From IMG/VR virus record IMGVR_UViG_2671181094_000002: a DNA stretch of 38,185 nucleotides. One strand, written 5' to 3'. Source of the DNA: a virus (taxonomy: Duplodnaviria; Heunggongvirae; Uroviricota; Caudoviricetes). Every line of letters begins with the position of its first letter. Within the stretch, counting starts at the first letter, position 1. The position numbers were made by a program, and so were the translations under genes. Positions 23,718-35,336 of this stretch are shown here, piece by piece. The notes beneath the pieces were generated by a model that did no database searches, was not told the DNA's origin, and saw only the letters and a program-made list of their open reading frames with translations.

Positions 23718-24732
<1,015 letters not shown>

Positions 24733-24850
24733 CCACAATACAACCTTGTTGTCGCAAAAAGATCGCATATGCGATTGTTTATTAGAAATAGAAATCGCCA
24801 TATAGGCGAATAGTCGATCTCAGCGCATAACATAAGGAAATCAATAACAT

Positions 24851-25756
24851 ATGCCAAATTTACCGATGGGCGGATCGCAGGGTGAATTACCCTTAGTACC
24901 TACAGTAGAAGTTGTTGCTGATGGCATTCCTATGGGGGTGCTTAATGATGGAACCCCTTATCTAACTCTTTACGGTTTAGCCAAATTATGTGGCATAGAT
25001 GAAGCACCTCTTCGAATGTTTACATCTAACTGGGAGACTGAAAAAAATAAGCCAAGAGGACAAAAAGTAGCTGCATACTTAGCTGAGAAAGGATTTAACA
25101 ACGTTGACCGACTGTATACCCGCGTCATAAATAGCTCAAACGTTGAAACACATGCTTATCCTGACTATGTTTGTATGGCTATCCTCCGTTACTACGCTCT
25201 AGATGCCACCAATTTTGATAGGTCAGTCGCAATAGGTAATTTTGTTCGCTTGGCTGAGTACACGCTTAAGCGAATGATTTATGAAAAGTCAAATTACAAC
25301 CCAAATGCTTCAATAGATATCTCATTCGAGAACTATAGAGCAAGGATTAAGCTAAACGATCAGATACCGACAACTCATTTTGCAGTATTCAGAGAGATAG
25401 CTGACATTGCCATGAACCTGATCGGAGGAGGATTCCCAATGGATGACACCACATCTTTGGATGGAAGTGTTGGAATTCACTGGGGAAAGTATTGGACAGC
25501 TAATGGGCTATCTGAGAAATTCGGGGAAAGGGTGCAGTACCCACATCTATTCCCCGAAAATTACAGGCAGTCAGCTGCAAATAAGCATATAACAGCTTGG
25601 ATTTATCCTATTGAGGCACTTGGCGTGTTCAGAAAATGGCTACACGATAATTACGCAATGGAAAAACTGCCAAATTACCTTGGGAACAAAAAGATTAGTA
25701 ATGCCTCCGAGCTATTAGAGTCGATAAAAAAACCAGCACTCCCAAATAAGCATTGA
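24851..25756 (+). CDS. Hypothetical 301-aa protein with KilA-N/Bro-N-like N-terminal domain, occupying the rexAB position downstream of cI
   Basis: ORF in same orientation as cI, 118 bp downstream, followed by intrinsic terminator; AT-rich codon usage; N-terminal segment ...TPYLTLYGLAKLCGIDEAPLRMF...HAYPDYVCMAILRYYALD resembles KilA-N-type DNA-binding folds; not RexA/RexB. Confidence 0.6.
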   Translation: MPNLPMGGSQGELPLVPTVEVVADGIPMGVLNDGTPYLTLYGLAKLCGIDEAPLRMFTSNWETEKNKPRGQKVAAYLAEKGFNNVDRLYTRVINSSNVETHAYPDYVCMAILRYYALDATNFDRSVAIGNFVRLAEYTLKRMIYEKSNYNPNASIDISFENYRARIKLNDQIPTTHFAVFREIADIAMNLIGGGFPMDDTTSLDGSVGIHWGKYWTANGLSEKFGERVQYPHLFPENYRQSAANKHITAWIYPIEALGVFRKWLHDNYAMEKLPNYLGNKKISNASELLESIKKPALPNKH

Positions 25757-25767
25757 TCTCCACCACA

Positions 25768-25794
25768 ACCCGGCATCTGCGCCGGGTTTTCTTT
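25768..25794 (+). terminator. Rho-independent terminator ending the cI-moron transcription unit
   Basis: acccggc-atctgc-gccgggt stem-loop followed by tttctttg. Confidence 0.6.
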
Positions 25795-25944
25795 GCCTAA
25801 CGCCCCCAAAAAACACATAACCAATTGTATTTATTTTAAAATTAATAGATACAACTCGCTAAACATCGCAATTCAGATCTCTCGATCACCTTCCCAATCC
25901 ACACAACCCTGCAAAAAATAAATCTATAAAAAAAACATACAGAT

Positions 25945-26010
25945 AACCATCTGCGGTGATAAATTATCTCTGGCGGTGTTGACACAGATACCACTGGCGG
26001 TGATACTAAG
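25945..26010. promoter_or_regulatory. Left operator OL1-OL3 and promoter pL (transcribing rightward in this window toward N)
   Basis: aaccatctgcggtgata, tatctctggcggtgttg, taccactggcggtgata operator sites; ttgaca -35 and gatact -10. Confidence 0.85.
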
Positions 26011-26512: not shown

Positions 26513-27067
26513 TTACTTAGATATTGGCCTTGGCTTTATCTCAATATTATATGGATCATAGCTGGCAACTAATTCAGTCCAGTAAATATCCTCAATAGGG
26601 AATAATATATGCTTCCCGTTCCATCGGGAAAAAGTTTTGTTCAACACACCAAGCTCAATCAACTCACTAATGTATGGGAATTGTTTTGATGTAACCACAT
26701 ACTTCCTGCCTTCATTAAGGGCTGCGCACAAAACCATAGATTGCTCTTCTGTAAGGTTTTGAATTACTGATCGCACTTTATCGTTTTGCATCTTAATGCG
26801 TTTTCTTAGCTTAAATCGCTTATATCTGGCGCTGGCAATAGCTGATAATCGATGCACATTAATTGCTAGCGAAAATGCAAGAGCAAAGACGAAAACATGC
26901 CACACATGAGGAATACCGATTCTCTCATTAACATATTCAGGCCAGTTATCTGGGCTTAAAAGCAGAAGTCCAACCCAGATAACGATCATATACATGGTTC
27001 TCTCCAGAGGTTCATTACTGAACACTCGTCCGAGAATAACGAGTGGATCCATTTCTATACTCATCAA
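26513..27067 (-). CDS. sieB: Superinfection exclusion protein B
   Basis: 184-aa membrane protein ORF MMSIEMDPLVILGRVFSNEPLERTMYMIVIWVGLLLLSPDNWPEY..., opposite to pL transcription as lambda sieB. Confidence 0.85.
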   Translation of the reverse strand: MMSIEMDPLVILGRVFSNEPLERTMYMIVIWVGLLLLSPDNWPEYVNERIGIPHVWHVFVFALAFSLAINVHRLSAIASARYKRFKLRKRIKMQNDKVRSVIQNLTEEQSMVLCAALNEGRKYVVTSKQFPYISELIELGVLNKTFSRWNGKHILFPIEDIYWTELVASYDPYNIEIKPRPISK

Positions 27068-28013: not shown

Positions 28014-28085
28014 GCGCGGCGTTACCGCATACCAATTACGCTTCACTCGAGGCGTTTTTCGTTATGTATAAATAAGGAGCACACC

Positions 28086-28250
28086 ATGCAATATGCCATT
28101 GCAGGGTGGCCTGTTGCTGGCTGCCCTTCCGAATCTTTACTTGAACGAATCACCCGTAAATTACGTGACGGATGGAAACGCCTTATCGACATACTTAATC
28201 AGCCAGGAGTCCCAAAAAATGGATCAAACACTTATGGCTATCCAGACTAA
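28086..28250 (+). CDS. cIII: cIII (FtsH inhibitor protecting cII)
   Basis: 54-aa [57 protein letters not shown] read by hand; below track cutoff. Confidence 0.85.
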   Translation: MQYAIAGWPVAGCPSESLLERITRKLRDGWKRLIDILNQPGVPKNGSNTYGYPD

Positions 28251-32418: not shown

Positions 32419-32637
32419 ATGTACTTGACACTTCAGGAGTGGAACGCACGCCAGCGACGCCCAAGAAGCCTTGAAACAGTTCGTCGATGGGTACGCGAGT
32501 GCAGGATATTCCCTCCTCCGGTTAAGGATGGAAGAGAGTATCTGTTCCACGAATCAGCGGTAAAGGTTGACTTAAATCGACCAGTAACAGGTAGCCTTTT
32601 GAAGAGGATCAGAAATGGGAAGAAGGCGAAGTCATGA
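32419..32637 (+). CDS. xis: Excisionase Xis
   Basis: 72-aa ORF MYLTLQEWNARQRRPRSLETVRRWVRECRIFPPPVKDGREYLFHESAVKVDLNRPVTGSLLKRIRNGKKAKS. Confidence 0.95.
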   Translation: MYLTLQEWNARQRRPRSLETVRRWVRECRIFPPPVKDGREYLFHESAVKVDLNRPVTGSLLKRIRNGKKAKS

Positions 32638-33685
32638 GCGCCGGGATTTACCCCCTAACCTTTATATAAGAAACAATGGATATTACTGCTACAGGGACCC
32701 AAGGACGGGTAAAGAGTTTGGATTAGGCAGAGACAGGCGAATCGCAATCACTGAAGCCATACAGGCCAACATTGAGTTATTTTCAGGACACAAACACAAG
32801 CCTCTGACAGCGAGAATCAACAGTGATAATTCCGTTACGTTACATTCATGGCTTGATCGCTACGAAAAAATCCTGGCCAGCAGAGGAATCAAGCAGAAGA
32901 CACTCATAAATTACATGAGCAAAATTAAAGCAATAAGGAGGGGTCTGCCTGATGCTCCACTTGAAGACATCACCACAAAAGAAATTGCGACAATGCTCAA
33001 TGGATACATAGACGAGGGCAAGGCGGCGTCAGCCAAGTTAATCAGATCAACACTGAGCGATGCATTCCGAGAGGCAATAGCTGAAGGCCATATAACAACA
33101 AACCCTGTCGCTGCCACTCGCGCAGCAAAATCAGAGGTAAGGAGATCAAGACTTACGGCTGACGAATACCTGAAAATTTATCAAGCAGCAGAATCATCAC
33201 CATGTTGGCTCAGACTTGCAATGGAACTGGCTGTTGTTACCGGGCAACGAGTTGGTGATTTATGCGAAATGAAGTGGTCTGATATCGTAGATGGATATCT
33301 TTATGTCGAGCAAAGCAAAACAGGCGTAAAAATTGCCATCCCAACAACATTGCATGTTGATGCTCTCGGGATATCAATGAAGGAAACACTTGATAAATGC
33401 AAAGAGATTCTTGGCGGAGAAACCATAATTGCATCTACTCGTCGTGAACCGCTTTCATCCGGCACAGTATCAAGGTATTTTATGCGCGCACGAAAAGCAT
33501 CAGGTCTTTCCTTCGAAGGGGATCCGCCTACCTTTCACGAGTTGCGCAGTTTGTCTGCAAGACTCTATGAGAAGCAGATAAGCGATAAGTTTGCTCAACA
33601 TCTTCTCGGGCATAAGTCGGACACCATGGCATCACAGTATCGTGATGACAGAGGCAGGGAGTGGGACAAAATTGAAATCAAATAA
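32615..33685 (+). CDS. int: Integrase Int (tyrosine recombinase)
   Basis: 356-aa ORF MGRRRSHERRDLPPNLYIRNNGYYCYRDPRTGKEFGLGRDRRIAITEAIQANIELFSGHKHK...; overlaps xis 3' end as in lambda. Confidence 0.95.
   Translation: MGRRRSHERRDLPPNLYIRNNGYYCYRDPRTGKEFGLGRDRRIAITEAIQANIELFSGHKHKPLTARINSDNSVTLHSWLDRYEKILASRGIKQKTLINYMSKIKAIRRGLPDAPLEDITTKEIATMLNGYIDEGKAASAKLIRSTLSDAFREAIAEGHITTNPVAATRAAKSEVRRSRLTADEYLKIYQAAESSPCWLRLAMELAVVTGQRVGDLCEMKWSDIVDGYLYVEQSKTGVKIAIPTTLHVDALGISMKETLDKCKEILGGETIIASTRREPLSSGTVSRYFMRARKASGLSFEGDPPTFHELRSLSARLYEKQISDKFAQHLLGHKSDTMASQYRDDRGREWDKIEIK

Positions 33686-35103: not shown

Positions 35104-35336
<233 letters not shown>

What the first reader, a model, noticed from the sequence alone, without database searches (positions are those of the whole stretch)
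24733..25935. rexAB replaced by an AT-rich single-gene moron in the cI operon: candidate lysogen-expressed anti-phage (abortive infection) gene
Seen in sequence: directly downstream of cI (same strand, 118-bp gap, no intervening terminator) lies one 301-aa ORF (24851..25756) followed by a clean intrinsic terminator (25768..25794), then OL/pL. This is exactly where lambda carries rexA-rexB, but the protein is unrelated to either. The block is visibly more AT-rich than the flanking cI and N genes, the signature of a horizontally acquired cassette. Its N-terminal ~130 aa looks like a KilA-N/Bro-N-type DNA-binding domain; the C-terminal ~170 aa has no motif I recognise. Established knowledge: genes co-transcribed with the repressor from pRM are expressed in the lysogen, and this slot is a known hotspot for exclusion systems (RexAB in lambda). 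The BstA family of prophage abortive-infection proteins is described as about 300 aa with a KilA-N N-terminus and encoded next to the repressor. Inference: this is a defense gene, possibly BstA-like or a new single-protein system; family membership is unverified.
Basis: partly seen in the sequence, partly recalled or inferred. Interest (0 to 1): 0.85.

Follow-up and report, generated by a model that had tools for sequence, protein, structure and literature searches.

The report
Known BstA phage-defence gene replacing rexAB

Summary
A 301-aa ORF (24851-25756) lies 118 bp after a lambda-type cI. It is followed by the Timm terminator and OL/pL, and it replaces lambda rexA-rexB exactly (lambda homology stops at 24728 and resumes at 25767).

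The protein is BstA: PADLOC BstA E=3.6e-106, PHROG 6287 "BstA abortive infection system" E=5e-135, 43.5% identity to BstA of Salmonella phage BTP1, and 92% to the phage CL707 ORF. The CL707 ORF is of the same locus type as the tested BstA-Ec. Owen et al. 2021 (PMC8585504) already describe the family, its position behind the repressor and the rexAB synteny. Novelty is therefore low.

Two further findings:
- **Mosaic alleles.** This bstA clade occurs in 43 of 5426 complete E. coli genomes, as three mosaics. The window shares its 3' two-thirds with the BstA-Ec type, but has an unrelated upstream region and unrelated first 22 codons.
- **Conserved repeat pair.** That 5' region is where the anti-BstA (aba) element maps in BTP1. 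Across 77 diverse bstA loci, 49 carry a direct repeat spaced 56-57 bp at the same position. BTP1's copy is the published aba terminal repeat. The window has GATCTCAG/GATCGCAG (24816, 24873), so I predict aba at about 24816-24880, with a specificity different from BstA-Ec.

Function and aba activity remain untested.

The parts
23984..24012 (+). pRM promoter (-35 TAGATA 23984-23989, -10 TAGATT 24007-24012), the presumed source of the cI-bstA transcript
   Evidence: Sequence. Positions mapped from the annotated CL707 immunity region. cI region 97.5% identical to lambda.
24019..24732 (+). cI repressor, lambda immunity type (237 aa)
   Evidence: ORF. 97.5% nt identity to lambda cro-cI. PGAP calls it a LexA family protein in the identical prophage.
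24733..24850 (+). Cassette-specific 118-bp leader. Unrelated to the leader of the BstA-Ec/CL707 type except around the RBS. Contains two palindromes, ATCGCATATGCGAT (24762-24775) and TCGCCATATAGGCGA (24795-24809), of unknown role.
   Evidence: Alignments. 99.3% conserved behind a different repressor in E. coli 2013C-4538. Palindromes. Weak hairpins. RNA fold of the leader is not exceptional, z=-1.0.
24816..24880 (.). Predicted anti-BstA (aba) self-immunity DNA element: imperfect direct repeats GATCTCAG (24816-24823) and GATCGCAG (24873-24880), 57 bp start to start, flanking the RBS and start codon (-35 and +22 from the ATG)
   Evidence: 8/10 match at -116/-59 from the conserved MGVL codon. Same position and spacing as the validated CCCGCC repeats of BTP1 aba. 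Same position and spacing as the repeats in the CL707/BstA-Ec type and a BstA-Kp-like locus. Family-wide enrichment: 49/77 loci at spacing 56-57 against a mean of 2.7 for other spacings. Function here is inferred, not shown.
24851..25756 (+). bstA coding sequence (301 aa plus stop), BstA-family abortive-infection protein
   Evidence: PADLOC BstA 3.6e-106. PHROG 6287 5e-135. tblastn to BTP1 bstA 43.5% over 97%. Precomputed PF26567 and the UniRef/PGAP name "BstA(-like) C-terminal domain-containing protein".
24893..25291 (+). N-terminal domain (about residues 15-147), KilA-N/APSES-like putative DNA-binding domain
25159..25756 (+). 3' module of the mosaic gene (codons 104-301). The junction at about 25158/25159 lies in the invariant YPDYVCMA motif.
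   Evidence: Sliding identity to CL707 jumps from 72-85% to about 100% at 25159. The three mosaic types are counted. Invariant motif.
25298..25735 (+). C-terminal BstA domain (about residues 150-295), with no recognisable solved relative
25767..25798 (+). Intrinsic terminator (lambda Timm equivalent), right boundary of the replaced segment
   Evidence: -15.0 kcal/mol. Lambda homology resumes at 25767. Annotated as Timm in CL707.
25945..26007 (+). OL3-OL2-OL1 operators and the pL promoter
   Evidence: Sequence. pL called. Mapped from the CL707 annotation.

Best explanation
The 301-aa ORF is a bstA gene, a single-protein abortive-infection defence carried by a lambda-immunity lambdoid prophage in the slot where lambda has rexA-rexB.

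By analogy with BstA-BTP1 and BstA-Ec, it is made in the lysogen, presumably on the pRM transcript that reads through cI, and is harmless until another phage starts lytic DNA replication. BstA then gathers at the replicating phage DNA through its KilA-N-like N-terminal domain and blocks replication. The infected cell dies without releasing progeny.

When the resident prophage itself is induced, it escapes because the 5' end of its own bstA locus carries a DNA element, aba, which neutralises the cognate BstA once amplified. I place aba at about 24816-24880, marked by the direct repeats GATCTCAG and GATCGCAG 57 bp apart around the start codon.

This stretch and the first 22 codons are unrelated to those of the tested BstA-Ec type, although the last 198 codons are identical. 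So I expect the defence activity to be the same but the aba/BstA self-recognition specificity to be different.

- **Shown here:** family membership, anatomy, exact replacement of rexAB, mosaic allele structure, and the conserved repeat architecture.
- **Inferred:** expression in the lysogen, the phenotype, the aba position and the aba specificity.
For: **Family membership.**
- PADLOC BstA E=3.6e-106 over residues 8-286.
- PHROG 6287 "BstA abortive infection system, replication inhibitor" E=5e-135, full length.
- 43.5% identity over 97% to BTP1 bstA.
- 92% aa identity to the CL707 ORF.

**Link to the tested BstA-Ec.** The leader of the CL707 ORF starts with the exact primer site that Owen et al. 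used to amplify the bstA-Ec locus of NCTC10963. The reverse primer site is present in the window with one mismatch.

**Conservation and constraint.**
- 112 of the 113 homologues found carry the precomputed domain PF26567, and sources name the protein "BstA-like C-terminal domain-containing protein".
- The synteny is repressor, then bstA, then its own terminator, as in BTP1.
- Purifying selection is strong: against type B, codons 23-103 give pS 0.68 and pN 0.067; against type C, codons 104-299 give pS 0.78 and pN 0.072.
- AF2 gives a two-domain model.

**Published functions of the family.** The family causes abortive infection, blocks phage DNA replication and has a cognate DNA-based aba. BstA-Ec is active in E. 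coli and Salmonella (PMC8585504).

**Placement of aba.**
- The repeats sit at -116/-59 from the MGVL codon. BTP1's validated CCCGCC repeats sit at -115/-59.
- 49/77 loci carry a repeat at spacing 56-57, against a mean of 2.7 (maximum 11) for other spacing pairs and 1-2 in CDS controls.
- The leader is 99.3% conserved behind an unrelated repressor.
Against: - No experiment exists on this allele. [quoted passage not shown]
- Co-transcription with cI is presumed. No promoter-like site was found in the gap, and two weak hairpins lie between cI and bstA.
- The window's repeat is imperfect (8/10). On its own it would be only marginally significant: by my estimate, about 0.02 after allowing for the positions and spacings tested.
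- aba has been mapped experimentally only in BTP1. In 28 of 77 loci no repeat passed the threshold.
- KilA-N membership is not supported by sequence profiles.
- The identity of NCTC10963 BstA-Ec with the CL707 type rests on primer sites and gene length, not on the full sequence.
Confidence: 0.85

Rival explanations
1. It is a BstA-family defence gene, but the self-immunity element is not the repeat pair at 24816/24873. It could lie elsewhere in the locus (for example the two palindromes at 24762-24809), or this allele could lack aba, or the conserved 56-57 bp repeats could serve another purpose such as translational or transcriptional control of bstA.
For: The window's repeat is only 8/10. Other 8/10 matches at spacings 64 and 82 exist in the same stretch. 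In many alphaproteobacterial loci the repeated unit contains an SD-like AAGGA, which could point to a role in translation. aba has been mapped only in BTP1. The palindromes are conserved with the cassette.
Against: Position and spacing coincide with the only validated aba, within 1 bp. In BTP1, single-base changes in either repeat abolish aba. The spacing signal is specific to 56-57 bp and to this region. The BstA-Ec-type and BstA-Kp-like loci, which are known to carry cognate aba somewhere in the locus, each have their own repeat at the same place.
Confidence: 0.3
2. It is an antirepressor or KilA-type lytic regulator (KilA-N/Bro-N plus a C-terminal domain) rather than a defence protein.
Against: The hits are weak and confined to the N-terminal fold. 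Pfam KilA-N, Bro-N and ANT models do not match. The full-length match to BstA profiles is overwhelming. The C-domain has no antirepressor relative. The gene is co-oriented with cI and lies upstream of OL/pL, so an antirepressor expressed with the repressor would be self-defeating.
Confidence: 0.03
3. The gene is a passenger with no current anti-phage role in this prophage: inactive, or serving another host phenotype. The BTP1 homologue was first named st313-td and linked to virulence phenotypes.
For: Owen et al. cite earlier virulence and anti-virulence reports for bstA. One E. coli genome has the gene interrupted by IS1. BstA-Ec was weaker against coliphages.
Against: The ORF is intact, and 99-100% identical copies occur in 23 complete genomes. 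Purifying selection on both modules is strong. Every BstA homologue tested so far confers defence.
Confidence: 0.07

Closest known systems
BstA-Ec type (E. coli NCTC10963, tested by Owen et al. 2021; same locus type as the phage CL707 ORF CL70704 and E. coli 2012C-4431 WP_000026554.1)
   Same: The length is the same (301 aa) and overall identity is 92%, with residues 104-301 identical. Position (directly after a lambda-type cI), terminator and OL/pL are the same. The RBS block ATAAGGAAATCA is the same.
   Different: The 118-bp leader is unrelated to the 86-bp leader of that type. 14 of the first 22 residues differ, with dN/dS about 1. Codons 23-103 differ at saturated synonymous sites. The repeat pair is GATC(T/G)CAG here and (G/A)ATCCCT(A/G)CA there, so I predict a different aba specificity. 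This allele has not been tested.
BstA-BTP1 with its 63-bp aba (Salmonella phage BTP1, STMMW_03531)
   Same: The family, the two-domain layout and the position behind the repressor with an own terminator are shared. The direct repeats sit at the same distance from the conserved MGVL codon and flank the RBS and start codon.
   Different: Identity is only about 42-44%. The repeat sequence is CCCGCC rather than GATCNCAG, and the spacing is 56 rather than 57. The host phage is a P22-like Lederbergvirus rather than a lambda-like phage.
Lambda RexA-RexB
   Same: Exactly the same genomic slot (cI stop to Timm), the same strand and the same presumed pRM operon. Both are prophage abortive-infection systems (discussion in PMC8585504).
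   Different: There is no sequence relation. This is one protein instead of two, with no membrane channel component. The mechanism differs: a block of phage DNA replication rather than loss of membrane potential. No Rex model matched in PADLOC.
KilA-N / Bro-N / APSES DNA-binding domain proteins (phage KilA, antirepressors, fungal Mbp1)
   Different: There is no profile-level match. The C-terminal domain and the biological role are different.

Membership tests
BstA (prophage abortive-infection protein, Owen et al. 2021) | Full-length sequence homology to BstA profiles and to BstA-BTP1 | tested here: met
   PADLOC BstA 3.6e-106, residues 8-286 against model 4-281/292. PHROG 6287 5e-135, residues 5-301 against model 3-304/304. 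43.5% identity over 97% to BTP1.
BstA (prophage abortive-infection protein, Owen et al. 2021) | Two domains: a KilA-N-like N-terminal domain and a BstA C-terminal domain, with a boundary near residue 150 | tested here: met
   AF2 full model pLDDT 85.4 with pTM 0.58, and the C-domain alone gives pTM 0.81. Precomputed PF26567 on the 99%-identical cluster representative. The N-domain fold is only weakly similar to KilA-N/APSES.
BstA (prophage abortive-infection protein, Owen et al. 2021) | Encoded directly downstream of, and co-oriented with, the prophage repressor, with its own Rho-independent terminator | tested here: met
   cI 24019-24732, bstA 24851-25756, terminator 25767-25798. Same layout in BTP1 and CL707.
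BstA (prophage abortive-infection protein, Owen et al. 2021) | Cognate aba DNA element at the 5' end of the locus, with terminal direct repeats | tested here: inconclusive
   An imperfect repeat (8/10) lies at the canonical position and spacing. The architecture is enriched family-wide. Activity cannot be tested in silico.
BstA (prophage abortive-infection protein, Owen et al. 2021) | Confers abortive infection by blocking phage DNA replication; expressed in the lysogen | not testable with these tools
   [quoted passage not shown] No data exist for this allele.
RexAB | Homology to RexA and RexB; a two-gene sensor plus membrane channel | tested here: not met
   Lambda homology is interrupted exactly over rexA-rexB. 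The replacement is a single ORF. No Rex hit in PADLOC.
KilA-N domain (Pfam) | Match to the KilA-N profile | tested here: not met
   hmmscan against Pfam-A returned no family at E<=10. Only fold-level resemblance was found. "KilA-N-like" is therefore the right wording.

The most novel reading that the evidence does not exclude
The conserved pair of direct repeats 56-57 bp apart at the 5' end of bstA loci is the general recognition architecture of aba, and its sequence acts as a specificity code. In that case E. coli prophages carry at least two mutually non-cross-immune BstA/aba pairs: the window's GATCNCAG type and the BstA-Ec ATCCCT type. These pairs are reassorted as a 5' module (leader plus about 100 codons of the DNA-binding domain) independently of the C-terminal effector module. 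The window's allele would then be an untested specificity variant, and aba could be predicted from sequence for most of the family.
Probability: 0.4. Interest if true: 0.5.

Novelty: already known. Interest (0 to 1): 0.28.

Why it matters
As a finding it mainly confirms that a lambda-immunity prophage, found in about 0.8% of complete E. coli genomes (including ST131-like clinical strains), carries a published single-gene abortive-infection system in place of RexAB. That is useful for annotation, since RefSeq still labels many copies "hypothetical protein".

The added value is a testable prediction. The self-immunity element aba has been mapped only in one Salmonella phage. It appears to have a family-wide signature: two short direct repeats 56-57 bp apart around the start codon. 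This allele differs from the tested E. coli allele precisely there. If confirmed, aba could be predicted from sequence, and one could ask how BstA tells its own replicating prophage from a competitor.

Tried and rejected
- **Local profile libraries.** The local Pfam-A and NCBIfam copies gave no hit, because the BstA C-terminal family PF26567 is evidently newer than the local Pfam copy. Membership therefore rests on PADLOC, PHROGs and direct comparison.
- **Solved structures.** Sequence searches of the PDB with the protein and with a 94-sequence profile found nothing meaningful: best E values were 0.44 ("Abi family protein" 8vz6) and 0.92.
- **RNA element in the leader.** The fold is unexceptional, z=-1.0, and Rfam finds nothing in the region.
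- **Dedicated bstA promoter in the gap.** The consensus scan found none on the + strand.
- **Third repeat copy.** GATCGCAT at 24761 lies 55 bp upstream of the first repeat, but the family shows no signal at spacings of about 112-114. I treat it as chance.
- **Genome-wide enrichment of GATCKCAG in the window.** There are 6 sites against 2.5 expected, two of them being the repeat pair itself. This is not notable.
- **Literature.** Degnan et al. 2007 (PMID 17376085) is not held, so its content is cited only through the GenBank record EF120459 and through Owen et al. A search for later mechanistic work on aba found none in the held library.
Full report
**1. The observation**

The window is a lambdoid prophage read on lambda's leftward strand. 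cI occupies 24019-24732 (+). A 301-aa ORF runs 24851-25756 (+), 118 bp downstream. It is preceded by AAGGAAA at 24833-24839. It is followed by a G+C-rich hairpin at 25767-25788 with a T-tract, whose fold energy is -15.0 kcal/mol.

OL3, OL2 and OL1 (25945-26005) and pL (25979-26007) follow, then nutL and N. I read these from the sequence and mapped them from the annotated immunity region of phage CL707.

Against lambda itself, homology runs from cro through cI to window 24728 (lambda 37231) at 97.5%. It resumes at window 25767 (lambda 35826), the last codon of rexB. So rexA-rexB is replaced exactly, from the cI stop codon to the Timm terminator.

- The block is only modestly AT-rich. GC is 0.415, against 0.457 for cI and 0.498 for N. 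But cro is 0.418 and sieB 0.389, and 10% of equal-sized windows are as low.
- The gap holds two short palindromic hairpins (24762-24775 and 24795-24809). They are weak (-6.9 and -7.6 kcal/mol) and lack U-tracts.
- The N-terminal "KilA-N" resemblance has no profile support.

**2. What it is**

The protein matches the PADLOC BstA model at E=3.6e-106 (residues 8-286). It matches PHROG 6287, "BstA abortive infection system, replication inhibitor", at E=5e-135 over its full length.

tblastn against phage genomes gives 43.5% identity over 97% to the bstA gene of Salmonella phage BTP1, and 94% to an ORF in the immunity region of coliphage CL707. A global alignment gives 92% to CL707 and 42% to BTP1.

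The exact protein is in the public collection, in a cluster of 206 members. Both exact sequences looked up (this protein and the CL707 ORF) are recorded on more than 600 contigs each. UniRef names it "BstA-like C-terminal domain-containing protein". Newer RefSeq annotations say "BstA C-terminal domain-containing protein", while older ones say "hypothetical protein". Of 113 homologues retrieved, 112 carry the precomputed domain PF26567. The local Pfam and NCBIfam copies do not contain a matching model.

**3. What is already published**

Owen et al. 2021 (PMC8585504) define BstA as a family of prophage abortive-infection proteins. Family members have a KilA-N-like N-terminal domain (BTP1 residues 32-147), and homologues in many cases lie downstream of a putative prophage repressor.

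BstA co-localises with infecting phage DNA and blocks its replication. The resident prophage escapes through aba. In BTP1, aba is a 63-bp DNA element spanning 29 bp upstream and the first 34 bp of bstA. Its terminal CCCGCC direct repeats are essential.

BstA-Ec from E. coli NCTC10963 and BstA-Kp were shown to confer defence and to have their own cognate aba somewhere in the locus. The paper's discussion explicitly notes that lambda carries rexAB at the corresponding site. It cites Degnan et al. 2007 for the mosaic diversity of this slot.

The forward primer used to amplify the bstA-Ec locus matches exactly the first 24 nt after the cI stop codon in CL707 and in E. coli 2012C-4431, which is also listed in their Table S1. 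The reverse primer matches the window at 25795-25816 with one mismatch. So the tested BstA-Ec locus is of the CL707 type. The finding is therefore a member of a known, experimentally characterised family, in its known genomic position.

**4. Structure**

An AlphaFold2 model built on 94 homologues has mean pLDDT 85.4. Residues 1-12 are disordered and there are two domains. The C-terminal 155 residues modelled alone give pLDDT 88.3 and pTM 0.81.

So "KilA-N-like" is acceptable at fold level only.

**5. Allele structure**

Compared with CL707 and 2012C-4431:

| Window segment | Identity |
|---|---|
| cI | 97-100% |
| 24739-24918 (leader plus first 22 codons) | essentially unrelated (25-33 of 60 positions) |
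| 24919-25158 | 72-85% |
| from 25159 onward | about 100% |

In 5426 complete E. coli genomes, 43 carry this bstA clade, and they fall into three mosaics:

| Type | 5' module | 3' module | Genomes | Notes |
|---|---|---|---|---|
| A | window type | window type | 23 | includes ST131-type strains and the 100% identical prophage of S1-CAM-02-A |
| B | CL707/BstA-Ec type | window type | 10 | |
| C | window type | about 78% identical | 10 | mostly O111-type strains |

In type C the cassette sits behind a different repressor, yet it keeps about 30 nt of the lambda cI 3' end. So the 118-bp leader belongs to the bstA cassette, not to cI.

The junction falls in the invariant YPDYVCMA motif.

Substitution patterns show old, constrained modules shuffled recently:
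- Type A against B, codons 23-103: pS 0.68, pN 0.067.
- Type A against C, codons 104-299: pS 0.78, pN 0.072.
- Type A against B, codons 1-22: pS 0.44, pN 0.44, so there is no protein-level constraint on the N-terminal tail.

**6. A predicted aba**

The unrelated stretch coincides with the position of aba in BTP1. I fetched 80 further bstA loci from one-genome-per-species contigs. I anchored all loci on the conserved M-G-V-L codon (window 24932) and dereplicated them to 77.

Exact direct repeats of 6 nt or more in the 240 nt upstream of the anchor peak at spacing 56 (21 repeats) and 57 (36), against about 3 per other spacing. With a 10-nt window and at least 8 matches:
- 49 of 77 loci have a repeat at spacing 56 or 57.
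- Other adjacent-spacing pairs average 2.7, with a maximum of 11.
- The same test shifted into the coding region gives 1-2.

The second copy lies 57-83 nt before the anchor.

BTP1's repeat is the validated CCCGCC, at -115/-59. The others:

| Locus | First copy | Second copy | Position |
|---|---|---|---|
| CL707 / BstA-Ec type | GATCCCTACA | AATCCCTGCA | -116/-59 |
| Klebsiella phage close to the BstA-Kp locus | GGTCATCACC | GGTCACCAGC | -117/-60 |
| Window | GATCTCAGCG (24816) | GATCGCAGGG (24873) | -116/-59, spacing 57 |

In the window, the first copy is in the untranslated leader and the second is in codons 8-10. The repeat sequence differs between lineages: GGAAATCACC, GATCACC, GGTCACC, GAGCACC, CCGCGCAC, GATCGCC and others. 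The geometry is constant.

Owen et al. mention the repeats only for BTP1. I therefore predict that aba of this prophage is about 24816-24880, and that its specificity differs from that of BstA-Ec.

Caveats:
- The window's repeat is imperfect. Taken alone it is only marginally significant.
- The loci are phylogenetically related, so the count of 49 is not 49 independent events.
- The repeats might have another role, such as translation control.

**7. Mechanism and confidence**

Best explanation (0.85 for "BstA-family abortive-infection gene"): the gene is expressed with cI in the lysogen, binds replicating foreign phage DNA and blocks its replication. On induction it is neutralised by amplification of the prophage's own aba.
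- **Shown here:** family membership, anatomy, exact replacement of rexAB, mosaic alleles, and the conserved repeat architecture.
- **Inferred:** transcription from pRM (no promoter-like site in the gap), the phenotype of this allele, the aba position (about 0.55) and its distinct specificity (about 0.5).

Rivals, each with little support (see their entries):
- aba lies elsewhere, or the repeats have another role.
- The protein is an antirepressor or KilA-like regulator.
- The gene is an inactive passenger or is linked to virulence.

**8. Verdict**

But the system, its synteny and its comparison with RexAB are published, and standard defence-annotation models identify the gene at once. Novelty is "already known", and interest is low as a discovery.

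The allele-level mosaicism and the family-wide 56-57 bp repeat signature are a modest, testable addition to what is known about aba.

Noticed in passing
77 bstA loci: window 24816-24880; L001 (CL707), L002 (BTP1), L008-L085, L087: Family-wide signature: a pair of short direct repeats spaced 56-57 bp at a fixed distance upstream of the conserved MGVL codon. It is present in 49/77 diverse bstA loci, against about 2.7 for other spacings. The repeat sequence varies by lineage. BTP1's pair is the published aba terminal repeat. This is not reported in Owen et al. 2021.
   Followed up: yes
window 24733-25158 vs 25159-25756; L001, L004, L005: The bstA alleles in E. coli are mosaics of two anciently diverged modules joined at the invariant YPDYVCMA motif (codon about 103). 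Three combinations occur in 23, 10 and 10 of 5426 complete genomes. Codons 1-22 evolve with dN/dS about 1, while the rest is under strong purifying selection.
   Followed up: yes
window 24762-24775 and 24795-24809: Two similar palindromes lie in the cI-bstA leader, ATCGCATATGCGAT and TCGCCATATAGGCGA, 33 bp apart start to start. They are conserved with the cassette behind a different repressor and absent from the BstA-Ec-type leader, which has its own CATCTAGATG palindrome. Their role is unknown: operator-like site, RNA processing or stability element, or part of aba.
   Followed up: partly
L005 3450-3500 (E. coli 2013C-4538): In the type C locus, bstA sits behind a non-lambda repressor. About 30 nt of the lambda cI 3' end (…CCAGTGGCCTGAAGAGACGTTTGGGTAA) are retained between that repressor and the bstA leader. 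This is a footprint of the cassette having moved from a lambda-immunity context by recombination.
   Followed up: partly
E. coli ECO2947, NZ_CP046259.1 about 4048689-4050668 (hits H37, H116): One genome has this bstA interrupted by an IS1A element near the position equivalent to window 24934, just inside the N-terminal domain.
   Followed up: no
window 24816-24819 and 24873-24876; also L001, L006, L007, L009, L012, L018: Both copies of the predicted aba repeat contain GATC (Dam methylation sites), as do the repeats of several other gammaproteobacterial alleles. BTP1's CCCGCC does not. Whether methylation state of replicating versus resident DNA matters is unknown.
   Followed up: no
window 26513-27067 (-), 28073-28131 (+), 35172-35242 (-): A second exclusion gene, sieB (superinfection exclusion B family), lies just beyond N. 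Rfam finds the lambda cIII thermoregulator (88.5 bits) and, beyond the integrase ORF (32615-33685), apparently outside the prophage, a naRNA4 match (60.7 bits, just above the gathering score).
   Followed up: no
[not shown]
   Followed up: partly
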